Positions 1,659 through 16,240 of a stretch of 17,816 nt of DNA are shown here, in pieces. The translations under genes were made by a program, and so were the position numbers. Each line of letters opens with the position of its first letter. Within the stretch, counting starts at the first letter, position 1. The notes below the pieces were generated by a model. The model ran no database searches. It saw only the letters and a list, made by a program, of their open reading frames with translations, and was not told the origin of the DNA. Source of the stretch: a virus (lineage: Duplodnaviria > Heunggongvirae > Uroviricota > Caudoviricetes); the IMG/VR virus record IMGVR_UViG_2939121850_000003; one strand, 5' to 3'.

Positions 1659-4130
1659 TTAAGAATCAGCCTGACTCGGGATCAGTTTTTGCCAGATAAC
1701 TGAAACGTATTTTGCCTGGTAACGGGCGTCATCAAGTGCATTATGGCGCTCACCTTCGAATTGAATAGCCGTTCTGGCATCGAAGTCTATGACTTTCCCC
1801 AGCTCAACGATTGTGCGTACATCGCGATCGTTGTAGTAACGCCACGGGCAGGGGATCCCCTGCCGTTCGTATGAACGGCGCAAAATCGTGTTGTCGAAGT
1901 TGGCTCCATTCCCCCAAACCTGAACAAAAAATTCACCGGAGTTTTCGTCGATAAATTCCCGCAATTGTAACAGTGCATCATCTAACGGGATTTCATCGGT
2001 CATAATGGCAGATTGCGCTTCGCGTGATTGCTTAAGCCACCATTTAATGGTGTCCCGATCAATGACTCCGCCAGCAGTTTCCAGATCGATAGTCTTACTA
2101 AATTCCGGTCCCATATCTCCGGTTTGCGGATCGAAAAATATTGCACCTATTGAGGTGATCGGGGCATCAGGATTTTTTCCCATGGTTTCAAGGTCGATCA
2201 TTAGATGGTCACACGTCCTGCTGGTGGATGTGATTTCGTGATGACCGTTCACCTTAATTGGGTGATCTGCCGTCTCGCCAGTTTCATTATCGCTATTGTG
2301 ATGCTGATTGCCGCCAGTGTTCTCCTTGTGTGGATGTTCAGCGCCTTCCATTTCCTCCGGATCATCTTCCTGAACTTCAACCTGATACTCTTCATCGAAT
2401 GTTTCTTGGTATGTTGCGTCGCCCATCACCGCGCCACAATCAGGGCAGTTGCCGCCGCCGGTCTGACCGCAGGCGGTGCAGACTTTTTCCACTTCCTGTT
2501 GCGCTACTGGTTCAGGCTGTTTCGTTTCTGGCTCGTTTTGTAACGCATTTGGACTGTTTTGTTCCGCTTTTTGGTAGTTCCGTTCCGATTCATGCTGGTT
2601 CTGGTTCACAGAATCGCGGGTCTGGATCCCCTTAACCCATTTCGGATCATTCGGGTCACTAATCCCTTCAACAAATTCACCACGTGATGCAGCAAGCAAC
2701 TTATCAGCGTCAGGCTGGCTGATATTGGCTGCCTGCATAATTTTGTTTACTTCGTCAGCGGTAACTTTTATCGGCTCTGGTTGTTCTGAATCTTCAGCGG
2801 TATCTACATTTTGCGGTAAGCCCGTGTATGTGCCATTTTTTCGGGCAAAATATTCTTCTTTTGTGATTTCAGTGGCGCCAGCAGCCAGTGCCTTATCCAG
2901 ACCAGAAAGTTTGTTTGCGCGACCGTATTTTTCTCCGTCCTTATCTGCGAAGAGGAAATAGAACGGCCCCTCACGCTCTACAGATGGTTCAGCTTCCGGC
3001 GCGGTTTCATTTTTTGGGATATCAGATACCTCAGTTTCCACTGCATCAGTTTGTGTTTCTGATGACTGGAGAACATCAACAGTGCCCAGGTCTGTTTCTT
3101 CATTCTCAAACACGCCCTTTGTCGTCAGGTATTCGCAGATATATTTGTTCAGTGCTACGGGATCTTTGTGAATGTCGATCGGACGCTCACGGACAAGGCC
3201 AAAAATAGTTTGGCGGTCGTAGCGAAGGGCATCAGGCTGTTTGCGCATTGATGCCGAGATACGCTTCCAGTCTTCGCGGTCGTTGTCGATAACTTCTTTT
3301 TTTGCCCAGCGATGGATGCTGCCGTCAATGTTTCCGGCATCCACATCACCAGGCCAGAGAGCGTAGGCCAGTTCGTCATCCAGTGTTTTCCATGTCTGCT
3401 TGTATTCGCGATGAATGGCAGCAATGACCGGGCTGATTTTTCCTGTTGAATTTTCAGTGTACTGTTGATTGGCTCTGGCGCGTGCGAGATCAACAACAGA
3501 CGTGTATTTTCCGGTTTCCTTGCGTTCACCTTCGCGACGTTTTTTCCAGATGCGCATCTCTGCCTGAATTTCGGGCCATTTAGCACCAGGAATACATTTA
3601 TGCTTAACCCACCCAATGGCGTGCAACTTAAGCTCCGGATACATGGCGTTAACTTCTGGCATTTTCATCAACGCTTCAACGATATGTCCGTCGAATGTTG
3701 CCATGTCTTCCTGCAACAATTCCTGTGCGCTAATAACCATATCAACGGTGATGTTTTCACATGTGTCGAACTTAACCATGACAGCGTTCTGTACTTCAGG
3801 GGCCAGCTTGTCAAAAGTGACGTTCATCGGATCGGATTCAGTCTCAACCGGGACAAAAGAAGCAGACTCCTCATCCCAGCGGTTTTCCTGCATATATTCA
3901 GCATCCCATGAATCGAGGGCAGGGCGGGGTATGCCAGGTTTATCCTCGCAGACAATAAATTTATAAGCGCAGTCCTGAGCAGCCGGATAATGTTCCAGGA
4001 ATTGCCAGTGAAATTTTGCTCGAGCACGGCGTTCGTCGCCAGCTTCAATGGCTGTGGCTACAGCCACAGCGCCTTCTTCCCTTGTTGCCAGTTCGTCAGG
4101 AATAGCGGCGCAAATAAAGACTTTACTCAT
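1659..4130 (-). CDS. Prophage exonuclease, 823 aa, with C-terminal DEDDh (DnaQ-like) 3'-5' exonuclease domain
   Basis: C-terminal segment has Exo I (MIDLETMG), Exo II (VWGNGANFDNT) and Exo III (HNALDDARYQAKY) motifs. An acidic low-complexity linker and a C-x2-C-x7-C-x2-C zinc-ribbon-like motif (CTACGQTGGGNCPDC, coded about 2430-2500) precede it. Resembles the large proteins annotated as exodeoxyribonuclease VIII in lambdoid prophages. Start has upstream context consistent with a pL-type leftward operon. Confidence 0.8.
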   Translation of the reverse strand: MSKVFICAAIPDELATREEGAVAVATAIEAGDERRARAKFHWQFLEHYPAAQDCAYKFIVCEDKPGIPRPALDSWDAEYMQENRWDEESASFVPVETESDPMNVTFDKLAPEVQNAVMVKFDTCENITVDMVISAQELLQEDMATFDGHIVEALMKMPEVNAMYPELKLHAIGWVKHKCIPGAKWPEIQAEMRIWKKRREGERKETGKYTSVVDLARARANQQYTENSTGKISPVIAAIHREYKQTWKTLDDELAYALWPGDVDAGNIDGSIHRWAKKEVIDNDREDWKRISASMRKQPDALRYDRQTIFGLVRERPIDIHKDPVALNKYICEYLTTKGVFENEETDLGTVDVLQSSETQTDAVETEVSDIPKNETAPEAEPSVEREGPFYFLFADKDGEKYGRANKLSGLDKALAAGATEITKEEYFARKNGTYTGLPQNVDTAEDSEQPEPIKVTADEVNKIMQAANISQPDADKLLAASRGEFVEGISDPNDPKWVKGIQTRDSVNQNQHESERNYQKAEQNSPNALQNEPETKQPEPVAQQEVEKVCTACGQTGGGNCPDCGAVMGDATYQETFDEEYQVEVQEDDPEEMEGAEHPHKENTGGNQHHNSDNETGETADHPIKVNGHHEITSTSRTCDHLMIDLETMGKNPDAPITSIGAIFFDPQTGDMGPEFSKTIDLETAGGVIDRDTIKWWLKQSREAQSAIMTDEIPLDDALLQLREFIDENSGEFFVQVWGNGANFDNTILRRSYERQGIPCPWRYYNDRDVRTIVELGKVIDFDARTAIQFEGERHNALDDARYQAKYVSVIWQKLIPSQADS

Positions 4131-6335: not shown

Positions 6336-6403
6336 CGAGATTAAAGTGCATTAGTTCAGATGCAAATTGACATTTTGTGGCACAGGGTAGAGCTAGCGTG
6401 GTT

Positions 6404-6427
6404 GTCCGCTTTGTGCCAAGAGCGGAC
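6404..6427 (+). repeat. 24-bp palindromic junction element, copy A (GTCCGCTTTGTGCCAAGAGCGGAC)
   Basis: 7-bp perfect stem GTCCGCT/AGCGGAC with 10-nt loop, between convergent genes (5913-6335 plus, 6465-7409 minus). 22/24 identical to copy B at 7620-7643. Confidence 0.8.
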
Positions 6428-6464
6428 TTTGCAAAATGGGGGTTATTTCAATCAAAACGTAACG

Positions 6465-7409
6465 TCACAACCAGCCGACGCTCTCTCGCCATTTATAATT
6501 AGTAACTTTATCATTTTCGCTTATTTTTTTAGATATAGAGCGCGGCTCTCTTCCTAGATACTCAGATATTTCTATCGGGGACAAATCAAAATCAACAAGC
6601 ATGACTCTAAGTTTTTCCATTTCCTTTAAAGTCCAAGGCTTGCCATAATTTTCATAAAGAGATACCTTATGCTCCCTGATAGTTCGCTTTCTCTGAGTTT
6701 CACTTTCCCTCTGAAAAATCTCGCTTTTAAATTGTGAACGGAACTCTTTACAGAAGTTGTTATCAGTTTTTTTGTTATATAGATTGCTAAAAATAAGCTG
6801 GGATGCCGGGTCTAAATCAGGTGTGTTAATAATGAAAACTTTGACCTTTTCCATATAGGGATATTCAATTTTACCCAATATGCTTAATTGCTTTATATTA
6901 AAAAAACCTCTCAAATCAAAAGATTTAATGAGCTTTGATTGGATTACACTTTCAATCCTGCTTGCATTTAAATAACAGTACTTTGCCATTGGAAGGGCCC
7001 ATACTACCAGTTGAGGAATATATTTTTCTAATGCAATGCTCTGCCAATCAGTATCAAAGGTTTGGCTTTTTGCTAGCATGTTTTTCGGCAAATCAGAATA
7101 CATTGTGGTAGATGCCCATATCTTATAATCATTCGCCAAGGCTTGATAGTATTTTGTGTGGTTATGAATTTTATAAGCTGACATGAAGCGATAAACGTCT
7201 TCGTCGTGACCAGCGTCGTAAATTGTTCGATTTCCTCTAAGATAACCGTCGTAATGTTCGGTTATCCTTCTACCTACATTACAACTTACCCCAACGTAAA
7301 CCACACGACTGAAAAGTCCTTTATGGACAATAAGATAAACTCCGCTACAGCCAGATTTCCTGGCCTCTGATAGAGAACCTAAAAATCTCCATTCCATAAT
7401 TAAATCCAT
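6465..7409 (-). CDS. GIY-YIG nuclease-domain protein (314 aa) with C-terminal HTH-like region
   Basis: N-terminal GVYLIVHKG...VVYVGVSCNVGRRITEHY matches the GIY-(N10)-YIG-(x)N...R...H nuclease signature. C-terminal WTLKEMEKLRVMLVDFDLSPIEISEYLGREPRSISKKI looks like a DNA-binding helix-turn-helix. The gene is strongly AT-rich relative to the flanking prophage genes (by eye). Confidence 0.8.
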   Translation of the reverse strand: MDLIMEWRFLGSLSEARKSGCSGVYLIVHKGLFSRVVYVGVSCNVGRRITEHYDGYLRGNRTIYDAGHDEDVYRFMSAYKIHNHTKYYQALANDYKIWASTTMYSDLPKNMLAKSQTFDTDWQSIALEKYIPQLVVWALPMAKYCYLNASRIESVIQSKLIKSFDLRGFFNIKQLSILGKIEYPYMEKVKVFIINTPDLDPASQLIFSNLYNKKTDNNFCKEFRSQFKSEIFQRESETQRKRTIREHKVSLYENYGKPWTLKEMEKLRVMLVDFDLSPIEISEYLGREPRSISKKISENDKVTNYKWRESVGWL

Positions 7410-7577
7410 AATTATTGCTACTGTTTTTGTTTATCATTATTTTCGTGAAACTTCAACAATTTTATCCAAAAGCTAAGGGCAAAGACTTATATAATTATAC
7501 TTGTCATCGTTAGCGATTATATAGAGTAGTGGCGCTGACCTGCTCCCTGGTGATTCACACAGAATGCTGTTAGTAAT

Positions 7578-7643
7578 GTCCGTTCCTCGCTCTCAGCGGA
7601 CCTTCAGCTCAGTGATATCGTCCGCTCTGTGCAAAGAGCGGAC
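7578..7643 (+). repeat. Two tandem copies of the 24-bp junction element (B0 7578-7601 GTCCGTTCCTCGCTCTCAGCGGAC; B 7620-7643 GTCCGCTCTGTGCAAAGAGCGGAC)
   Basis: Read directly. B forms a 9-bp perfect stem with a 6-nt loop. B0 shares the GTCC...GGAC ends and the central CGCTC. Located between the GIY-YIG gene start and the 449-aa gene end. Confidence 0.8.
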
Positions 7644-7956
7644 GTTGGTATGCAAGAGCCCTCCAAAAGTTGATGGTTGGTTTGCAGGGGGGCTTAAAGA
7701 AACTGCACTTATCAAGTTGAAGTTCTGTATTCAGCGAAATCGTAGCACTCTGACGATAAGTAACTCCGGTACTCCGCTCTTCGATGAAGAACCAGAGTAA
7801 TCCCCCCGAAAAACCAGCGCATCAAAATTGGATCTTCAGCGGTAGCTTATCGGCTATCGGAAGTACAGGTGTGGATTCGTGGTGAATTGCTTTGATAATA
7901 AACGATTAATACGGAAAAACGCATTAATCATTTATTAGCTTTTAGTAAACCACAAT

Positions 7957-9306
7957 TTATTCCGTTTTACATATCATAGTAGTCGATTGGAGAATATAGT
8001 TTCTGGGAATGTACTCTTCAAAGTGTTCGTCCTTTTTAAATACATGAACTACATTTGGGAATAATTGATAGTCAACAGGGTGTATAGCGTTTGGATTATG
8101 GTACATGTACATGGCTGTACACCATGGTTCTTGATAGTTAGGGTCACTTACATCGGCTGAAAATGGATGTGGGGCTGCATCCTGATCAGTTTTAACACCA
8201 CTGACGTACACTTTGAATCCACTCGCCTCTACACCTGCAAGAATTCCCATCCGGTTAAACTTAGGTATGGTTGCTTGAGTAGTGAGTAAAACGGCAGAAA
8301 CATAATTATTTTGTTCTGAGCCAAAAAAGTTCGACTTGATACTTCTATTTTCATCTGTATGTCTTTCAATAGAAATGCCTGACTCAATATCAATCCCGTA
8401 CAAATAGCTATGCAAGGCTTCGCTTGAGAAGGCCATGGACATTCTTTTTGAATAATCCTGCATTGCTATGACAAATGGTTTGTTCTTTGTATGGTTGAGT
8501 TCCCAGTAATGAACTTTCTCTGGCTCAGGGCAATGCCGGACTTTTTTTAATAAACTTCTTGCAAACTTAAAAGGCATGACATTTAGAACATGTTTTCTTA
8601 ATTCATCCATCTGTTCATCGTTAATGACTTTTCTTTCAAGAGGGGCTTCTGCTTCAGCAATGCTTACAGCCTCTACAGCAATTTCCACTCCAAATTTAGA
8701 TAGCAGAAAATCTGGTTGATTGTATTCTCTATTCATTTCAAAGTCGAGTTCATAAAATACAGCGTTCAAATATAATTCAAATAACCTTGAATTAAATGCA
8801 TCACTTTGAAAATCCCTTATAAATATTCCATCAGGATCTTTGAACCAGTATGCAAGTTCCTCAAGAACAATATATGCAGGGAAATGAAGAGGGTCTTCGA
8901 GGAGCATTTTTATATAAACATTCCTTTTTTTCGCTGGGACCTTACTCAAGAATAATGAAAAAGGTTTGGTTGATTCATCGCCTTGCATGAATGTACCATT
9001 TTGGTGCTGCGCCAGCATCTTTGGTATGTCATCGTTCAAATTATTAAGCAAGACATCCATTGAATCAAATGAAGCCAAGACGTTTATTGCTCTGAATTTT
9101 TTATCTAAATCCCGACCTAAGACTATTGCGTTAAAATCTTTATCAATATTGCATATGATTATTGTGGATAACAATGTTATCCCATTCCCCTCATATTTAA
9201 ACCAGCGTATCTCCTCAGAAAATGTCTTAAGGTAAGGTGAGCGACCGTAAAAATAAATATCAAATTGTTCTTTGCTGATCTCACTGAAGTGTAATCCTGC
9301 GTTCAT
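7957..9306 (-). CDS. Hypothetical protein (449 aa), no recognisable family
   Basis: Long uninterrupted ORF in the AT-rich block. ATG at 9306 is preceded by AAGGAA about 8 nt upstream on the minus strand. No Walker A, methyltransferase or other signature found by eye. Confidence 0.75.
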   Translation of the reverse strand: MNAGLHFSEISKEQFDIYFYGRSPYLKTFSEEIRWFKYEGNGITLLSTIIICNIDKDFNAIVLGRDLDKKFRAINVLASFDSMDVLLNNLNDDIPKMLAQHQNGTFMQGDESTKPFSLFLSKVPAKKRNVYIKMLLEDPLHFPAYIVLEELAYWFKDPDGIFIRDFQSDAFNSRLFELYLNAVFYELDFEMNREYNQPDFLLSKFGVEIAVEAVSIAEAEAPLERKVINDEQMDELRKHVLNVMPFKFARSLLKKVRHCPEPEKVHYWELNHTKNKPFVIAMQDYSKRMSMAFSSEALHSYLYGIDIESGISIERHTDENRSIKSNFFGSEQNNYVSAVLLTTQATIPKFNRMGILAGVEASGFKVYVSGVKTDQDAAPHPFSADVSDPNYQEPWCTAMYMYHNPNAIHPVDYQLFPNVVHVFKKDEHFEEYIPRNYILQSTTMICKTE

Positions 9307-9428
9307 ACCAATTCCTTTTCAATGAATAATTGGCCTTTAGGAGTGATTCCCTTTGTCTTTAATTCAGTTCTAACTAGTTCTTTAATCCAATAGCCTAAGC
9401 TCATCATGCAGTTGGATCATAAGACAAC

Positions 9429-9457
9429 GCCCTATAGTGCTCGTGATACTATAGGGC
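9429..9457. repeat. Inverted repeat with 10-bp arms and 9-nt spacer (GCCCTATAGT / ACTATAGGGC)
   Basis: Perfect inverted repeat read directly in the divergent intergenic region upstream of the short recombinase gene. Confidence 0.6.
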
Positions 9458-9560
9458 ATCTGACCACACTGTTAACTGGAGTAACGACTATGGCAGGAAT
9501 ACAGCATAACCAAACTCACCCCAAACTTACATAGCGCTTTCTGGCCGTGAGCATAACAAG

Positions 9561-9584
9561 GTCCACTCCTCGCTCATAAGGGAC
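9561..9584 (+). repeat. 24-bp junction element, copy C (GTCCACTCCTCGCTCATAAGGGAC)
   Basis: 18/24 identity to copy B0, including the conserved GTCC 5' end, central TCCTCGCTC and GGAC 3' end. Lies between the 449-aa gene and the recombinase. Confidence 0.6.
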
Positions 9585-9590
9585 AACCAT

Positions 9591-9623
9591 ACTCAAATCT
9601 CCCACATTGCAGGAGATTTGAGT
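9591..9623 (+). promoter_or_regulatory. Perfect 12-bp hairpin sequestering the recombinase Shine-Dalgarno (ACTCAAATCTCC-N9-GGAGATTTGAGT)
   Basis: Right arm 9612-9623 contains GGAG and ends one nucleotide before the ATG at 9624. The architecture (12-bp inverted arms, 9-nt spacer) could alternatively be a protein-binding or recombination core-type site. Confidence 0.6.
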
Positions 9624-10226
9624 ATGAACACGTCACCGTGGAACAAAGACCGTATCATAGGCCAAAAAAGACCACTTCAGATATCTCATATCTGGGGTAT
9701 CCGAATCCGACTTGAACTGGAAGGTAAAACTCGCGATTTAGCTCTGTTCAACATGGCCCTGGATAGTAAGCTTCGAGGCTGTGATCTGGTCAAACTCAAA
9801 GTATCTGATGTTGCATATGGTGGCTCTGTTTCAAGCAGAGCAACGGTGTTGCAACAGAAAACCGGTAGCCCTGTTCAATTTGAGATAACCAAAGGGACAA
9901 GAGAAGCTGTTGCTGCATTGATACAGCTTAGCAATTTGCACAGTAAAGACTTCTTGTTTCGGTCTAGGGTCGGAACTAACCAGCACATTTCAACCCGGCA
10001 ATACAACCGAATCTTTCATGGGGGGGTAGAAAAGCTTGGTCTCGAAGATTCGCTTTACAGCACACATTCCATGAGAAGAACAAAACCTTACCTGATCTAC
10101 AAGAAAACCAAGAATCTCCGGGTGATCCAACTTCTGTTGGGTCATAAGAAACTGGAAAGCACAGTCCGTTATCTGGGCATTGAAGTCGATGATGCGTTAG
10201 AGATTTCTGAATCGATTGAAGTCTAA
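9624..10226 (+). CDS. Short tyrosine recombinase (about 200 aa, FimB/FimE-like catalytic-domain-only integrase)
   Basis: From ATG 9624 (MNTSPW...); the ORF track's 9618 is a TTG. Contains an R box (TRDLALFNMALDSKLRGCDLVKLKVSDV), HSMRRT (H-x-x-R) and LLGHKKLESTVRYLG (GH...Y). Size and motif spacing match the FimB/FimE family of small invertase-type tyrosine recombinases. Confidence 0.8.
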   Translation: MNTSPWNKDRIIGQKRPLQISHIWGIRIRLELEGKTRDLALFNMALDSKLRGCDLVKLKVSDVAYGGSVSSRATVLQQKTGSPVQFEITKGTREAVAALIQLSNLHSKDFLFRSRVGTNQHISTRQYNRIFHGGVEKLGLEDSLYSTHSMRRTKPYLIYKKTKNLRVIQLLLGHKKLESTVRYLGIEVDDALEISESIEV

Positions 10227-10230
10227 GGTT

Positions 10231-10268
10231 GTCAGGGCTGCAACAGCAGCCCTGTGCCATAAGCGGAA
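10231..10268 (+). repeat. Stem-loop (CAGGGCTG-caacag-CAGCCCTG) and possible expanded variant of the junction element (copy E)
   Basis: 8-bp perfect stem beginning 7 nt after the recombinase stop, with no U-tract. The segment begins GTCAGG and ends CATAAGCGGA, loosely resembling the GTCC...GGAC elements. Confidence 0.4.
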
Positions 10269-10585: not shown

Positions 10586-11566
10586 ATGAAATTTAAGGAC
10601 AAGAACCTTAAGGCTCTCGCGGAATGTATCATAGGAGATAATAAGGCATTTCTGTATCGTTCAAGCAGTCACATCACTGAATTTTTCCAGGACTGCGGCA
10701 TGGATGTTACTCATGACGGATCCACTCGGTGGAAATGGACGGCCCAGAGGCTTGAAGAACTTCTTTATGAGCCACAGTCAAAGCCACATACTTTGCCGGA
10801 AAGGTTTGTTCATGTGCTCAGAACTTTAATGTTAAAAGAAGATGCAATGGATGACGATCCAGGAAGATTAAAGGCGCTTGAAGAACTGAACAAGCCTTTG
10901 ATGCGGGAAGGCTATGAGGCATTCTATGGTGACGATCGCCTTTTGTATATACGCCATACCGATACCAAAACGGTTTCAGTCAGTAATAACCCTCATCGGC
11001 CCTTAACGCCTCACGAAGTAGAATGCAGAAGGTTACTGACCGCGTTTCTTGATACCTGCTCAGAAGATGAGTTAATAGAAGATATTCTCCTTCCTTTATT
11101 CCGGCAACTTGGTTTTCACCGGATAACAGCAGTGGGACATAAAGATAAAGCGCTGGAATACGGGAAAGACATCTGGATGAAGTTCACACTGCCAACTCAG
11201 CATGTTCTTTATTTCGGCATTCAGGCAAAAAAAGGTAAGTTGGATGCGTCCGGTGCCAGCAAATCTACGAATTCAAACGTGGCAGAAATCTTCAACCAGG
11301 TACTGATGATGCTTGGCCATGAAATATTTGACCCAGAAACAAATAGAAAGGTGCTGGTAGATCATGCCTTTATCGTTGCTGGCGGAGAAATTACTAAACA
11401 GGCGAGGAACTGGCTGGGCGGGAAACTTGATGCCAGCAAAAGAAGCCAGATAATATTTATGGACCGGGAAGACATTCTTAATTTATATACTGTAAGTAAT
11501 GTACCTCTGCCAACAGGTGCTCTCATCTCTGATGATGCCGTTAAGAACGATGATATTCCTTTCTAA
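10586..11566 (+). CDS. Protein with C-terminal Mrr-like PD-(D/E)XK restriction-endonuclease-type motif and uncharacterised N-terminal domain (326 aa)
   Basis: ATG at 10586 preceded by gaGGGGGAGa. C-terminal segment ITAVGHKDKALEYGKDIWMKF...HVLYFGIQAKKGK shows the D...(I/V)QxK arrangement of Mrr-type nuclease cores. The N-terminal 170 aa or so have no motif I recognise. Confidence 0.75.
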   Translation: MKFKDKNLKALAECIIGDNKAFLYRSSSHITEFFQDCGMDVTHDGSTRWKWTAQRLEELLYEPQSKPHTLPERFVHVLRTLMLKEDAMDDDPGRLKALEELNKPLMREGYEAFYGDDRLLYIRHTDTKTVSVSNNPHRPLTPHEVECRRLLTAFLDTCSEDELIEDILLPLFRQLGFHRITAVGHKDKALEYGKDIWMKFTLPTQHVLYFGIQAKKGKLDASGASKSTNSNVAEIFNQVLMMLGHEIFDPETNRKVLVDHAFIVAGGEITKQARNWLGGKLDASKRSQIIFMDREDILNLYTVSNVPLPTGALISDDAVKNDDIPF

Positions 11567-11790: not shown

Positions 11791-11814
11791 TTCCGTTTCT
11801 CGCTCAAAGCGGAC
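11791..11814 (+). repeat. 24-bp junction element, copy D (TTCCGTTTCTCGCTCAAAGCGGAC)
   Basis: 20/24 identity to copy B0. Located between the Mrr-like gene and the small-ORF/hok region. Confidence 0.6.
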
Positions 11815-12083: not shown

Positions 12084-12237
12084 TTTTATATTGGCGAGGT
12101 GACGGGAGTTAAGTAGAATTGCTGCGGGTGCTTGAGGCTATCTGCCTCAGGCATGAACACCAAAGGCAGATAGAGAAAAGCCCCAGTTAACATTACGCGT
12201 CCTGCAAGACGTTTAACATTAATCTGAGGCTCAATCT

Positions 12238-12450
12238 ATGAACGGCAAATCTAGGTTAGCCTCTTACGTGCCGAAAGGCAAGGAGAAGCAGGCTATGAAG
12301 CAGCAAAAGGCGATGTTAATCGCCCTGATCGTCATCTGTTTAACCGTCATAATGACGGCACTGGTAACGAGGAAAGACCTCTGCGAGGTACGAATCCGAA
12401 CCGGCCAGACGGAGGTCGCTGTCTTCACAGCTTACGAACCTGAGGAGTAA
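12238..12450 (+). CDS. mok-like in-frame leader extension of the hok gene (70 aa reading frame)
   Basis: The ORF starts 19 codons upstream of the hok start in the same frame, as in chromosomal mok/hok loci. Whether it is translated independently is inferred. Confidence 0.45.
   Translation: MNGKSRLASYVPKGKEKQAMKQQKAMLIALIVICLTVIMTALVTRKDLCEVRIRTGQTEVAVFTAYEPEE
12295..12450 (+). CDS. hokD: Hok/Gef-family type I toxin (51 aa), hokD/relF-type
   Basis: MKQQKAMLIALIVICLTVIMTALVTRKDLCEVRIRTGQTEVAVFTAYEPEE matches my recollection of E. coli HokD (RelF) almost exactly and the Hok family signature (TRKDLCEV...E/TEVAAF). Internal ATG at 12295. Confidence 0.85.
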   Translation: MKQQKAMLIALIVICLTVIMTALVTRKDLCEVRIRTGQTEVAVFTAYEPEE

Positions 12451-13263: not shown

Positions 13264-14619
13264 GTGCGGGTATTACTTCGACCTGTTCTGGTACCGGAAC
13301 TCGGGCTGGTGGTCGTTAAGCCGGGCCGTGAATCCATGCCGGTATTCCACAATACCCGGGTAACCGAAGCGCTCGACACGACATTAGGACTGCTTACAAA
13401 AACAGGACGAGACTGGAACACGCAGCATACTGATAACATTAATAAATTTATACCAATTGCAGGCAGTACAAACGGCCCGGCAGGCTCTATGGTTCTTGGC
13501 GGCATTCATGTTCAATTTAGTAAAAATTATGCTGTGCAGTTCGGAGGCCGCAATTCCGGTTTTTGGGGAAGAACAATTGAAAATGGAACGACACAGGAAT
13601 GGAAGAAATTACTAACAGTAGACGATCTCAATTCATCTACCGATCTTGCTGTCAGGTCATTAACCACATCTAACCCGGTAAAATCTGGCGGAGGGCGAAT
13701 TGATGTCCTTGGAAGCACGTCAGACTATAGCAAAATGGATTGCTTTGTACGTGGGTTTGATAGCACCGGTAATTCTCTCGTGTGGGCGTTGGGTTCATCA
13801 GTCGGCGTAAGTAAGATGCTATCGCTAAAAAATTTCTTTAGCGGAGCTGAGATACTGTTAAATGGTAATGACGGCGCGGTTCAACTCAAAACAGGTGCTG
13901 TTAACGGGGCTACAGCGCAGACGCTCACTATCAACAAGAATGAGGTTAACTCAACCGTTGATTTAACCCTTACAAAGCAATCAGGGACTGGTAATCGTTT
14001 TGTTTTACAGAACTCAGGTAATGCAGAACTACCGTTTTCTGTCAGGGTGTGGGGTTCCAGTACTCGACAAAACGTTTTTGAGGTTGGAACGTCTGCTGCG
14101 TATCTGTTTTATGCGCAAAAAACGTCAGCAGGCCAGTTGTTTGATGTAAATGGCGCTATTAATTGCACAACGCTGAATCAGTCATCAGACCGCGACCTTA
14201 AAGACGATATTCTCGTTATCAGCGACGCGACGAAAGCAATCCGTAAAATGAACGGATACACCTACACGCTCAAGGAAAACGGGATGCCTTATGCTGGCGT
14301 TATTGCACAGGAAGTAATGGAGGCGATACCAGAAGCTGTGGGATCGTTTACTCATTATGGTGAAGAGTTGCAAGGTCCGACCGTTGACGGCAACGAGCTA
14401 CGCGAAGAAACTCGCTATCTTAATGTTGACTACTCCGCCGTGACGGGTTTACTTGTTCAGGTCGCCCGTGAAACAGATGATCGCGTTACCGCGCTGGAAG
14501 AGGAAAACACAACGCTACGTCAAAATCTGGCAACAGCAGGCACCCGGATCAGCACTCTGGAAAATCAGGTAAGCGAACTGGTTGCACTTGTCCGGCAGTT
14601 AACAGGAAGCGAACATTGA
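13264..14619 (+). CDS. Phage tail fibre protein, C-terminal fragment with S74-type intramolecular chaperone domain
   Basis: C-terminal region has the SDxxxK Ser-Lys dyad context (SSDRDLKDDILVISDATKAIRKMNGYTYTL...) and a coiled-coil tail typical of self-cleaving tail-fibre or tailspike chaperone domains. Upstream Gly/Ser/Thr/Asn-rich beta-type repeats. The N-terminus (GTG start, odd MRVLLRPVLVPELG) lacks a tail-attachment domain, so the gene is probably truncated. Confidence 0.75.
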   Translation: MRVLLRPVLVPELGLVVVKPGRESMPVFHNTRVTEALDTTLGLLTKTGRDWNTQHTDNINKFIPIAGSTNGPAGSMVLGGIHVQFSKNYAVQFGGRNSGFWGRTIENGTTQEWKKLLTVDDLNSSTDLAVRSLTTSNPVKSGGGRIDVLGSTSDYSKMDCFVRGFDSTGNSLVWALGSSVGVSKMLSLKNFFSGAEILLNGNDGAVQLKTGAVNGATAQTLTINKNEVNSTVDLTLTKQSGTGNRFVLQNSGNAELPFSVRVWGSSTRQNVFEVGTSAAYLFYAQKTSAGQLFDVNGAINCTTLNQSSDRDLKDDILVISDATKAIRKMNGYTYTLKENGMPYAGVIAQEVMEAIPEAVGSFTHYGEELQGPTVDGNELREETRYLNVDYSAVTGLLVQVARETDDRVTALEEENTTLRQNLATAGTRISTLENQVSELVALVRQLTGSEH

Positions 14620-14799
14620 TATCCTTCAAGCCCTGAAGGAGGCTGTTCCTGGTACGTTCAGACTGTTGTTGAGCTGGAAATCGCAACGGAGGAAGAAACT
14701 TCGTTGCTGGAAGTCTGGAAGAAGTATCGGGTGTTGCTGAACCGTGTTAATACAACAACTGCACCGGATATTGAATGGCCAGTAGCACCTATAGGGTAA
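14620..14799 (+). pseudogene. tfa: Remnant of tail fibre assembly gene (tfa), C-terminal about 45 codons only
   Basis: Translation [42 protein letters not shown] matches the conserved C-terminus of lambda Tfa as I recall it (..[39 protein letters not shown]). It lies in the same frame as the tail-fibre ORF, separated only by the TGA at 14617-14619. Confidence 0.65.
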
Positions 14800-14873
14800 A
14801 TTCGTAATGATTACCTAAATACGTTATTCTTTTGTTCAAAAAGTGATTTTGCTATAGGTAGGGAGTATGTTCT

Positions 14874-14912
14874 TGGATTAAGAATAAAAATCGCCATGAA
14901 AGAGCTTCATGG
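14874..14912 (-). terminator. Intrinsic-terminator-like hairpin on the minus strand (stem CGCCATGAA/TTCATGGCG, loop AGAGC, then T-rich tract on minus strand)
   Basis: 9-bp perfect stem at 14890-14912. Plus-strand A-run 14874-14889 (aagaataaaaat) reads as ATTTTTATTCTT after the stem on the minus strand. Confidence 0.35.
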
Positions 14913-15378
14913 CGAGTACATAAACGTACAAAATATGATGAAAGTAGAGTGGCGTAAGCCACTATATTAAGATATGACAATAGCGAAGAAAAGTAAATAA
15001 CATTTTATGGGCGTTTAATTGTTAATTATAAAAACTAGAGTGCCCGATATTGTTTATCTTGCTTTAAAATAATGTACTCAAACCAAATTTTTGAGCTAAA
15101 AGCTCAAATAATATAAATGCAATGATAATGTTTAATAAGACAATTAGCTTGCTTTGTATTTTCATTTCGGAATACTGTTAAGTAACTTTGATGACACTAA
15201 CAATAGATCGGAATTTTCTTAGAGTCAATGGTCACTGTTTTTGCTTGCAAAGCAAATGTTTTTGGTGGTTATAAGTTTTCTTAATATAGTCACCTATGCA
15301 ACTTGTTCCGTGTGGAGATTAAAGGTTAAAATTTAATGCGAAGATGGAATTATAATATATTTTTTTATAATTAATTTA

Positions 15379-15486
15379 ACCTTAACATCGTTGCTGGCGG
15401 CATGGAAGAAATATCGGGTCTTGCTGATGTCGTGTTGGCACTTCCTTAGTGCGGTTATCGAATGGCCAGCTGTACCTGTGGGGTAA
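15379..15486 (+). pseudogene. Second degenerate tfa C-terminal remnant
   Basis: Translation ..[14 protein letters not shown]...IEWPAVPVG* with the internal segment scrambled, consistent with indels. Direct repeat of 14620-14799. Confidence 0.55.
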
Positions 15487-16143
15487 AAACTTTATATGGG
15501 TGCTATTTTTATAATAGCTGGTAAAAACTGGCCGAACTGAAATTCACTGTTGATAAAAAAGATGTGTTTGAGTGTATGTCATTGTTTTCTTAACGGAATC
15601 CACTAGAATGCAGCGAATTTAAGAAGGTGGGTTTTTATTGGAATATAAACTACAATAATGCTCAACTCGTTCGTAGAATTGTTTTTTCTTATTTTTTGGA
15701 ATGCTAACCATTATATGCATTATGGGGGCGATACTTCCTGATAATTTACATGATGCATACATTGAAGCAATAAATTCAATATCATTGTCATCAAAGTTAA
15801 AGCTTTCTCCGTCCATTTCAATTCCTTATGTGTTTGGCATAACTGATGCTGTATCCCATGAGAATTTATGCAAGTTGTTATGTTTGATTTGATATTGCAA
15901 TGATAATTGTAGCTAATTGTTTTCAATTGAGTGAAAGTTTATTTCGAGTGATTAAGTCGAAAAAAAAGATTTCTCACGGTTAGTAAGCGTATTAGGTTAG
16001 TATTCAGATATGAATGGTATTAATGACTAAATTTTCAATCATATATGGATTTTTATGCTGATGAAGATGTTTTATTTGGCGATTCGTCAAGCATCTTCAC
16101 TTAAGTAATCGTATATTTTAAGAGTGCAAAAGAGAAAGGGACA

Positions 16144-16240
16144 ACGTTGCTCGCACTCTGGATTAAATATAGGGTGTTGTTAAACTGCGTTGATACATAA
16201 TTGTACCGGATATTGAGTGGTCTGAAGTCCCAGTCATTAA
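16144..16240 (+). pseudogene. Third degenerate tfa C-terminal remnant
   Basis: Translation TLLALWIKYRVLLNCVDT* followed out of frame by VPDIEWSEVPV. Direct repeat of the two copies upstream. Confidence 0.5.

What the first reader, a model, noticed from the sequence alone, without database searches (positions are those of the whole stretch)
6465..7409. AT-rich GIY-YIG nuclease gene with C-terminal HTH, flanked by near-identical palindromes
The protein has a clear GIY-YIG catalytic signature plus an HTH-like C-terminus. That architecture recalls free-standing homing endonucleases (I-TevI or Seg type) and also nuclease effectors of antiphage systems. The gene is compositionally foreign and is bracketed by copies A and B of the palindromic element (22/24 identical). 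No methyltransferase partner is visible, so it is not a classical R-M pair.
Basis: partly seen in the sequence, partly recalled or inferred. Interest (0 to 1): 0.7.

Follow-up and report, generated by a model that had tools for sequence, protein, structure and literature searches.

The report
Nuclease gene cassette between recombination sites
The gene is a real but uncharacterised DNA-cutting enzyme that travels as a single-gene cassette, and the palindromes beside it are the junction sites of what looks like an undescribed, integron-like system that swaps mostly anti-phage genes in and out of prophages and genomic islands.

Summary
ORF 6465-7409 (-) is AT-rich (36% GC) and has two domains. 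The N-terminal domain is a GIY-YIG nuclease with every catalytic residue invariant in the family. The C-terminal domain is a Myb/SANT/GcrA-like three-helix DNA binder. The flanking palindromes are real and 22/24 identical.

The palindromes are not specific to this gene. They belong to two site types, T1 (central GTGCCA) and T2 (central TCGCTC), which share the arms GTCCGC/GCGGAC. These sites bound every gene between DUF977 and hokD: [T1 GIY-YIG T2]-18 nt-[T1 PD-T7-1 T2*]-small tyrosine recombinase-[T1* orf326 T2].

The same 1.2-kb cassette sits at 98-99% identity in unrelated E. coli islands. In Vibrio parahaemolyticus the gene is a classical integron cassette. Breakpoints map inside the 8-bp centre of the sites.

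In 15 recombinase loci, 65 of 73 sites share the recombinase's orientation. Thirteen of 30 cargo ORFs are known defence proteins.

The homing-endonuclease reading is not supported. An anti-phage nuclease is the most likely function but is untested. I found no description of the site system in the searchable literature.

The parts
6404..6427 (.). T1 site (GTCCGCTTT GTGCCA AGAGCGGAC); left junction of the GIY-YIG cassette. The left arm belongs to the prophage backbone after DUF977; the right arm belongs to the cassette.
6465..7409 (-). GIY-YIG nuclease gene with a C-terminal Myb/SANT/GcrA-like DNA-binding domain (314 aa; probable start at 7397). Catalytic set: Y25, Y38, R48, H52, E153, N171.
7410..7577 (-). 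AT-rich upstream (promoter/5') region that travels with the cassette.
   Evidence: identical in all E. coli copies of the cassette
7578..7601 (.). T2 site (GTCCGTTCC TCGCTC TCAGCGGAC); right junction of the GIY-YIG cassette.
7602..7619 (.). 18-nt linker CTTCAGCTCAGTGATATC of the recurrent T2-linker-T1 composite junction.
   Evidence: T2->T1 start-to-start spacing 39-42 in 16 further junctions
7620..7643 (.). T1 site; left junction of the PD-T7-1 cassette.
7957..9306 (-). PD-T7-1 defence gene, an independent neighbouring cassette (T1 7620 to T2* 9561 = 1941 bp).
   Evidence: E 7e-157; stand-alone 1941-bp T1..T2 cassettes elsewhere
9561..9584 (.). T2* site (GTCCACTCCTCGCTCATAAGGGAC) 62 nt upstream of the recombinase start.
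9624..10226 (+). Small (200 aa) catalytic-domain-only tyrosine recombinase. It lies in the T2->T1 interval that elsewhere holds the 18-nt linker.
10245..10268 (.). T1* site (AGCAGCCCTGTGCCATAAGCGGAA) after the recombinase terminator-like hairpin.
10586..11566 (+). orf326, unassigned cargo in the T1*..T2 slot.
   Evidence: no family hit
11791..11814 (.). T2 site (TTCCGTTTCTCGCTCAAAGCGGAC); right end of the array. The prophage backbone (hokD/sok) follows.

Best explanation
Shown. ORF 6465-7409 encodes a two-domain protein. An N-terminal GIY-YIG nuclease module of about 210 aa carries a large insertion between the Arg/His helix and the Glu helix. It is fused to a C-terminal Myb/SANT-like DNA-binding domain.

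The gene is a self-contained single-gene cassette with its own AT-rich upstream region. The cassette runs from the right half of a T1 site to the left half of a T2 site.

The prophage segment between DUF977 and hokD is an array of such units: [T1 GIY-YIG T2]-linker-[T1 PD-T7-1 T2*]-recombinase-[T1* orf326 T2].

Inferred mechanism of movement. T1 and T2 are double-stranded core sites of the classical tyrosine-recombinase kind: 7-9 bp inverted arms GTCCGC../..GCGGAC around an invariant asymmetric centre. The small recombinase, supplied in cis or in trans, would exchange strands within the centre of two T1 sites or two T2 sites. That would excise a cassette as a circle carrying a T2-linker-T1 junction, and would insert it at any other T1 or T2 site. 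Such sites include the T1..T2 slot that many Rac/Qin-type lambdoid prophages carry after DUF977.

Inferred function of the gene. It most likely works as a stand-alone anti-phage or anti-MGE nuclease. The Myb-like domain would position the GIY-YIG active site on target DNA. How self DNA is spared is unknown. Candidates are dependence on a DNA modification, a phage trigger, or tight repression.
For: Protein:
- Catalytic residues are invariant.
- PF01541 is hit by 25 of 28 members and at the curated cut-off by two relatives.
- The model is confident.

Cassette:
- The segment 6402-7638 recurs at 98-99% identity in four unrelated contexts: next to NACHT/HEPN, in Ag43/GTPase islands with type I RM and DarT, next to the small recombinase plus a REase, and at 92% in a tRNA-Gly island.
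- It is a solo insert in Serratia with T2 and T1 still flanking it.
- It is a bona fide integron cassette between attC repeats in V. parahaemolyticus.

Breakpoints:
- Loci that share the left flank are identical through T1 positions 1-16.
- Loci that share the cassette are identical from T1 position 9 onward.
- Cassettes are identical through T2 position 15 and then diverge.
- In 116 T1 sites from viral contigs (34 left-flank and 57 right-flank clusters), position 8 tracks the left flank (p<0.0005). Positions 16-17 track the right flank (p<0.0005) and not the left (p=0.87).

Grammar:
- In 15 recombinase loci, 65 of 73 sites share the recombinase's orientation (p=3e-12).
- T2->T1 spacing is 39-42, or 682-684 when the interval holds the recombinase gene. 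T1->T2 spacing is 0.6-5.4 kb.
- The centres of the sites are their most conserved positions.
- The arms do not co-vary, as expected for independent half-sites.
- A T1-like core sits at a fixed offset after the recombinase stop codon in 22 of 79 loci, down to 60% protein identity. About 0.85 would be expected by chance.

Defence context:
- PD-T7-1 lies next door.
- 13 of 30 cargo ORFs in such arrays give strong PADLOC hits: mREase IV, JukA, Lit, SIR2+HerA, NsnABC, dGTPase, ThsA-like and a helicase.
- The neighbours elsewhere are AbiH, a BrxR plus MksE-like system, and RES/HEPN.
Against: - There is no experimental evidence for nuclease activity, phage defence or recombination.
- The window protein itself is below the Pfam cut-off, and Foldseek against PDB is not significant.
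- It matches no PADLOC v2 defence family beyond weak hits to the N-terminal motif.
- Only 3 of 120 viral-contig T1 loci carry the recombinase within the fetched stretch. The recombinase would therefore often have to act in trans, and the link between sites and recombinase rests on association only.
- Cargo is not exclusively defensive. Examples are an asparaginase in Kosakonia and a BCCT transporter in L008.
- In Kosakonia no clear T sites flank the gene.
- The informative positions only bracket the crossover to positions 9-16 of T1.
Confidence: 0.6

Rival explanations
1. Free-standing homing endonuclease (I-TevI/Seg type). The nuclease cuts alleles that lack it, possibly at the palindromes, and spreads by repair from a copy that carries it. 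The palindromes would be its target or a by-product of homing.
For: The architecture is the same in outline: an N-terminal GIY-YIG domain with a C-terminal HTH-type DNA binder. The gene occurs as a lone insert between housekeeping genes in Kosakonia and Serratia. There are weak TIGR01453 and viral 'intron-associated endonuclease' matches.
Against: - There is no homologue in 50,697 phage genomes, and no significant match to a viral structure.
- The same T1 and T2 sites bound many cassettes that encode no nuclease, and bound the recombinase gene itself.
- In Vibrio the gene is moved by an integron.
- pTM 0.83 suggests a compact protein and not a tethered two-domain enzyme.
Confidence: 0.07
2. 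The palindromes are not recombinase sites. They are short conserved boundary or terminator sequences. Cassettes are shuffled by homologous recombination (RecA, or phage Red/RecET) across these 24-66 bp identities. The small recombinase is an unrelated passenger.
For: - Most phage T1..T2 slots lack the recombinase in cis (3 of 120).
- T1 lies 38 nt downstream of the GIY-YIG stop codon. In 11 of 14 single-ORF cassettes it lies at the 3' end of the cargo gene.
- The composite folds into two stable hairpins (z -3.9).
- Lambdoid phages encode Red/RecET-type recombinases, which work on short homologies (general knowledge; an exonuclease gene lies at 1659-4130).
Against: - The left and right arms segregate with their own flanks, and the switch falls inside the 8-bp centre.
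- The centre is the most conserved part of each site.
- There is no T-run after the hairpins.
- The arms do not co-vary, so pairing is not what is selected.
- Site orientation follows the recombinase and not the cargo.
- The recombinase gene occupies exactly the linker position, and keeps a T1-like core behind it across Gamma- and Betaproteobacteria.
Confidence: 0.2
3. Solitary restriction enzyme of the GIY-YIG class, related in kind to R.Eco29kI/Hpy188I. It would be tolerated without a methylase because it cuts only modified DNA (type IV-like), for example hmC- or glucosyl-hmC-containing T-even DNA. This is a specific version of the defence reading.
For: - No methyltransferase lies nearby.
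- A type IV methyl-directed REase occupies an equivalent cassette in L020.
Against: There is no sequence similarity to any REase model in PADLOC or NCBIfam. No known modification-reading domain is present; the C-terminal domain is Myb-like. The idea is entirely untested.
Confidence: 0.15

Closest known systems
Integrons (IntI, attI/attC, gene cassettes), including sedentary chromosomal integrons that store defence cassettes
   Same: Both have arrays of mostly single-gene units separated by short imperfect palindromes. Both have a tyrosine recombinase beside the array. In both, the same gene occurs in many arrays, and cargo is rich in phage defence. This very gene family is an attC-bounded cassette in V. 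parahaemolyticus.
   Different: - The recombinase is a 200-aa catalytic-domain-only protein. Integron-integrase models score far below their cut-offs (17 bits against 265-435).
- The sites are 24 bp with GTCCGC/GCGGAC arms. They have no RYYYAAC/GTTRRRY boxes.
- There are two site types that alternate.
- The arms do not co-vary, so a folded single strand is not indicated.
- Cassettes lie on both sides of the recombinase and carry their own upstream regions.
- Cargo orientation is biased but mixed.
pdif modules of Acinetobacter plasmids (modules bounded by XerC/XerD sites in alternating orientation)
   Same: Discrete modules are bounded by short sites of the arm-spacer-arm type, in a strictly alternating pattern. 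T2's centre resembles the reverse complement of T1's centre at 5 of 8 positions. The same module occurs in different replicons.
   Different: The sites have no similarity to dif/pdif. A dedicated small recombinase is encoded inside the array, whereas pdif modules rely on host XerCD. Hosts here are Enterobacterales and other Proteobacteria, prophages and chromosomal islands. The comparison with pdif rests on my own knowledge of that literature; nothing was computed on pdif sequences.
I-TevI / Seg-type GIY-YIG homing endonucleases
   Different: About 100 residues are inserted within the nuclease domain. The DNA binder is Myb/SANT-like, where I-TevI has a Zn finger, a minor-groove helix and an HTH. 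The gene is absent from sequenced phages. It is below TIGR01453's cut-off (14.5 against 56 bits). It is moved by site-specific recombination platforms.
PD-T7-1 and other single-gene defence systems of Vassallo et al. 2022 (PMC9519451)
   Same: It has the same kind of genomic address: its own cassette in the same array, AT-rich, a single gene, and found both in prophages and in defence islands.
   Different: There is no sequence relationship, and no experimental test of this gene. The GIY-YIG component mentioned in that paper belongs to another system, whose PADLOC models do not match this protein.

Membership tests
GIY-YIG nuclease superfamily (Pfam PF01541) | Profile match at the curated threshold | tested here: inconclusive
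   The window protein scores 15.8 bits against a cut-off of 22.6. 25 of 28 family members match at E<=0.01, best 7e-6. Two distant relatives score 23.0 bits and pass.
GIY-YIG nuclease superfamily (Pfam PF01541) | Catalytic residues conserved: Tyr of GIY, Tyr of YIG, Arg, His/Tyr, Glu, Asn | tested here: met
   Y25, Y38, R48, H52, E153 and N171 are invariant in 28 sequences down to 38% identity.
GIY-YIG nuclease superfamily (Pfam PF01541) | alpha/beta fold with a three-stranded sheet that carries the GIY and YIG strands | tested here: met
GIY-YIG nuclease superfamily (Pfam PF01541) | Metal-dependent DNA cleavage | not testable with these tools
   Needs purified protein.
Free-standing / intron-encoded GIY-YIG homing endonucleases (I-TevI, Seg, TIGR01453) | Family profile match | tested here: not met
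   TIGR01453 scores 14.5 bits against a cut-off of 56.05, on the N-terminal motif only.
Free-standing / intron-encoded GIY-YIG homing endonucleases (I-TevI, Seg, TIGR01453) | Resides in phage, intron or intergenic phage contexts and shows allele-specific presence there | tested here: not met
   No tblastn hit in 50,697 phage genomes. Contexts are islands, prophage cargo slots, an integron and 4 plasmids.
   The Pfam scan at E<=0.1 returned only PF01541.
Known anti-phage defence families (PADLOC-DB v2.0.0) | Match to a defence protein model | tested here: not met
   Only PDC-S14 and UzuA at E 0.0075-0.015, on the ~40-residue GIY-YIG motif. The same holds for relatives. Newer DefenseFinder models were not available.
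Known anti-phage defence families (PADLOC-DB v2.0.0) | Protection against phage when expressed | not testable with these tools
   Needs plaque assays.
Classical type II R-M pair | Cognate methyltransferase adjacent | tested here: not met
   No MTase in the RefSeq annotation of the identical region or among the neighbours scanned.
Integron | IntI-type integrase (the extra domain in the catalytic fold; TIGR02249/NF011946) | tested here: not met
   17 bits against cut-offs of 265-435. The protein is 200 aa and lacks a core-binding domain.
Integron | attC sites with R''/L''-L'/R' boxes that fold as a single strand | tested here: not met
   T1 and T2 have a different sequence. Each is palindromic on its own, and the arms do not co-vary. 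By contrast the Vibrio copy of the gene does lie between attC repeats.
Integron | Arrays of cassettes whose ends lie inside the recombination sites | tested here: met
Tyrosine-recombinase core site (lox/FRT/dif type) | Two inverted arms around a 6-8 bp asymmetric centre, with exchange inside the centre | tested here: met
   Arms of 7-9 bp around invariant centres GTGCCA and TCGCTC. Flank-arm linkage places the switch between positions 8 and 16. The strand exchange itself was not observed.
Tyrosine-recombinase core site (lox/FRT/dif type) | Binding and cleavage by the associated recombinase | not testable with these tools
   Association only.

The most novel reading that the evidence does not exclude
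T1/T2 sites together with the 200-aa tyrosine recombinase form a previously undescribed cassette platform. It is widespread: more than 8,000 protein clusters across Gamma- and Betaproteobacteria, and 918 of 5,426 complete E. coli genomes. It resembles an integron that uses double-stranded core sites. It inserts, excises and swaps single-gene or few-gene modules, mostly anti-phage ones, in chromosomal 'integrase-only' defence islands, in plasmids, and in a dedicated slot of lambdoid prophages. The GIY-YIG/Myb gene would be one of its uncharacterised defence cassettes. This would give a mechanism for defence islands whose mobilisation Hochhauser et al. 2023 called unclear.
Probability: 0.45. Interest if true: 0.85.

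Novelty: new variant of a known kind. Interest (0 to 1): 0.72.

Why it matters
How defence genes move between 'integrase-only' islands and prophage cargo slots is an acknowledged open question. PMC10121019 states that the mode of mobilisation of such E. coli islands is unclear.

A defined pair of 24-bp sites plus a tiny, highly conserved recombinase makes that question directly testable, with excision and integration assays.

It also gives a simple sequence rule for harvesting candidate defence genes: take whatever lies between a T1 and the next T2. Seventeen of the 30 cargo ORFs sampled have no known defence assignment. So do this GIY-YIG/Myb nuclease and orf326.

A minimal recombinase with two heterospecific sites might also be useful as a cassette-exchange tool.

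Tried and rejected
- A profile search of the family against PDB sequences gave only spurious antibody hits at E>0.1.
- Rfam has no family for the palindromes.
- Full-text searches found nothing relevant. I searched for the site sequences, the protein accessions, and phrases such as 'defence cassettes' and 'integron-like' plus 'anti-phage'.
- The E. coli T1/T2 consensus does not recover sites around the 60-65%-identical recombinases of Pseudomonas and Burkholderiales. There the core is CGGCCA..GCGGAC and the gene is flanked by inverted copies. I did not work out their array grammar.
- I considered that the palindromes are hairpins (terminators or attC-like). I rejected this as the main constraint, because the arms do not co-vary and no T-run follows.
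- I considered that the GIY-YIG nuclease targets the palindromes. I rejected it because the same sites bound unrelated cassettes.
- I considered a two-gene system with PD-T7-1. I rejected it because each gene occurs without the other.
- The 2024 study of chromosomal-integron defence cassettes does not mention a GIY-YIG system.

Full report
**Setting.** The window is a Qin/Rac-type lambdoid prophage remnant. It is integrated next to rspB in many E. coli strains and ends at ydfJ. From left to right it carries integrase, excisionase, a large exonuclease, dicB/ydfD, a replication-organiser gene and DUF977. A variable stretch follows, then hokD/sok, rem and tail-fibre fragments. The finding lies at the start of the variable stretch.

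**Observation.** ORF 6465-7409 (-) encodes 314 aa. It is 36.2% GC, against 48% for the replication genes. The palindromes at 6404-6427 and 7620-7643 exist, are 22/24 identical, and are not expected by chance.

Pfam GIY-YIG matches the protein only below threshold (15.8 against 22.6 bits). PADLOC and NCBIfam give only weak matches to the motif.

**The protein.** A search of 5.8 billion proteins found 72 clusters. Nearly all are 309-317 aa. They come from Enterobacterales, Aeromonas, Vibrio/Photobacterium, Pseudoalteromonas, Thalassotalea and Undibacterium.

- In a 28-sequence alignment reaching down to 38% identity, Y25 (GVY), Y38 (YVG), R48, H52, E153 and N171 are invariant.
- 25 of 28 members hit PF01541. 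Two more distant relatives pass the curated cut-off.
- The AlphaFold model is confident (pLDDT 91.9, pTM 0.83).
- An exhaustive profile search of 1.84 billion representatives found only 140 proteins at E<=1e-3. Many are 200-250-aa proteins that cover profile positions 1 to about 210 only. The nuclease module with its insertion therefore also exists without the Myb domain.

The protein is thus a GIY-YIG nuclease of a small, uncharacterised family.

**Not a phage homing endonuclease.** There is no homologue in 50,697 phage genomes. There is no significant match to a viral structure. Only four plasmids carry it.

**The gene is a mobile cassette.**

- The segment from T1 to T2 (window 6402-7638) occurs at 98-99% identity in unrelated E. 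coli places. These are beside a NACHT/HEPN pair near ykgJ-ecp, and in Ag43/GTPase islands beside type I RM and DarT or beside a small integrase and a REase. It occurs at 92% identity in a tRNA-Gly island.
- In Serratia it is a lone insert still flanked by T2 and T1.
- In Brenneria a T1 follows the stop codon.
- In Thalassotalea it lies beside a BrxR plus MksE-like system. In Aeromonas it lies beside AbiH. In Undibacterium it lies beside RES/HEPN genes.
- In V. parahaemolyticus it is an ordinary integron cassette between attC repeats.
- No neighbour is constant, so it acts alone.

**The palindromes.** A scan with two 24-nt consensus sequences, for which 0.04 hits are expected per window, finds six sites in the window. 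All have the same orientation: T1 6404, T2 7578, T1 7620, T2* 9561, T1* 10245 and T2 11791.

T1 is GTCCGCTCT-GTGCCA-AGAGCGGAC. T2 is GTCCGCTCC-TCGCTC-AGAGCGGAC.

Every gene of the variable stretch therefore has its own slot. The PD-T7-1 slot (7620 to 9561, 1941 bp) has exactly the length of stand-alone PD-T7-1 cassettes elsewhere.

The small tyrosine recombinase (200 aa, catalytic domain only; R...HxxR...H...Y motifs are readable in the sequence) sits between T2* and T1*. That is the position where other junctions have an 18-nt linker.

**Generality.** The recombinase occurs in 918 of 5,426 complete E. coli genomes. It belongs to a family of more than 8,000 clusters. Identity is 77-95% across Gammaproteobacteria and 60-65% in Pseudomonas and Burkholderiales.

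In 15 Enterobacterales-type loci:

- 65 of 73 sites share the recombinase's orientation (p=3e-12).
- T2->T1 spacing is 39-42, or 682-684 around the recombinase gene.
- T1->T2 spacing is 0.6-5.4 kb, holding one to a few ORFs.
- The site centres are the most conserved positions.

A T1-like core follows the recombinase stop codon at a fixed offset in 22 of 79 loci, against about 0.85 expected.

Thirteen of 30 sampled cargo ORFs are known defence proteins.

At least 120 viral contigs carry an exact T1, and 85 of those 120 have a T2 within 9 kb downstream. Only 3 carry the recombinase.

**Where the breakpoints are.**

- Loci that share the DUF977 flank are identical through T1 positions 1-16 and then diverge.
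- Loci that share the GIY-YIG cassette are identical from T1 position 9 and differ at positions 6-8.
- At the other end, the cassettes are identical through T2 position 15.
- Among 116 viral T1 sites, with 34 left-flank and 57 right-flank clusters, the variable left-arm base tracks the left flank. The variable right-arm bases track the right flank and not the left.
- The arms do not co-vary.

This is the signature of exchange within the centre of a double-stranded core site.

Strain A20 shows a nearly empty slot: DUF977-T1-225 bp-T2-hokD.

**Interpretation.** The nature of the protein, its cassette status and the junction mapping are shown. Three things are inferred: that the small recombinase does the exchange, that the exchange is conservative site-specific recombination, and that the gene defends against phage.

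The main rival for mobility is homologous recombination at short boundary sequences. The main rival for function is a selfish homing nuclease. Both are disfavoured by the evidence listed above, but neither is excluded.

**Literature.** I found no paper holding the site sequences or the accessions. Hochhauser et al. 2023 state that 'integrase-only' defence islands of E. coli have no known mode of mobilisation. The library does not cover subscription journals, so prior description cannot be ruled out.

**Verdict.** The gene is a new member of a known enzyme superfamily. Its flanks reveal what appears to be a new variant of cassette-exchange platform.

Noticed in passing
window 10586-11566 (+): A 326-aa ORF occupies the T1*..T2 cassette slot downstream of the recombinase. 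It has no hit in Pfam, NCBIfam, PADLOC or PHROGs. It is an unassigned cargo gene in a defence-rich array.
   Followed up: partly
window 9585-9629: The recombinase 5' leader forms a hairpin (ACTCAAATCTCC...GGAGATTTGAGTATG) that buries the Shine-Dalgarno sequence and start codon. The same arrangement, with a different sequence, is present in Pseudomonas homologues (CTTGTCCTCC...GGAGGACTTGCCATG). This suggests conserved translational control.
   Followed up: partly
window 9431-9457: A perfect 9-bp inverted repeat, CCCTATAGT-N9-ACTATAGGG, lies in the divergent region between PD-T7-1 and the recombinase. It may be an operator.
   Followed up: no
window 14559-16202: There are three matches to Rfam IS009 (RF02111; the best is 94.5 bits, below the gathering score of 117). 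They lie inside an ORF-poor stretch of 29-35% GC between the tail-fibre fragment and ydfJ.
   Followed up: no
window 12126-12300: There is a full-length sok antisense RNA (Rfam E 4e-25) of the hokD/sok locus, directly right of the last T2 site.
   Followed up: no
window 7815-7895: RefSeq annotates a C-terminal remnant of an AlpA/HTH regulator between T1 (7620) and the 3' end of PD-T7-1. It travels with the PD-T7-1 cassette, and is also seen in the P4-like island L012.
   Followed up: partly
L014 1364-3035 (Kosakonia cowanii); L008 4069-7765 (E. coli): T-bounded slots can hold non-defence cargo: an asparaginase gene in L014, and a BCCT transporter plus a DUF2254 gene in L008.
   Followed up: no
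L041-L099 (Pseudomonas, Burkholderiales, Methylomonas and others): Distant homologues of the small recombinase are flanked by inverted copies of GTCGCTAACCGGCCAGAAGCGGAC-like sites. This differs from the direct T2*/T1* pair seen in Enterobacterales, so the site grammar differs there.
   Followed up: partly
proteins P0209-P0256: Proteins of about 200-250 aa match only the first ~210 profile positions of the family. They are the nuclease module without the Myb domain. One 515-aa relative (P0215) fuses that module to DUF5677.
   Followed up: partly
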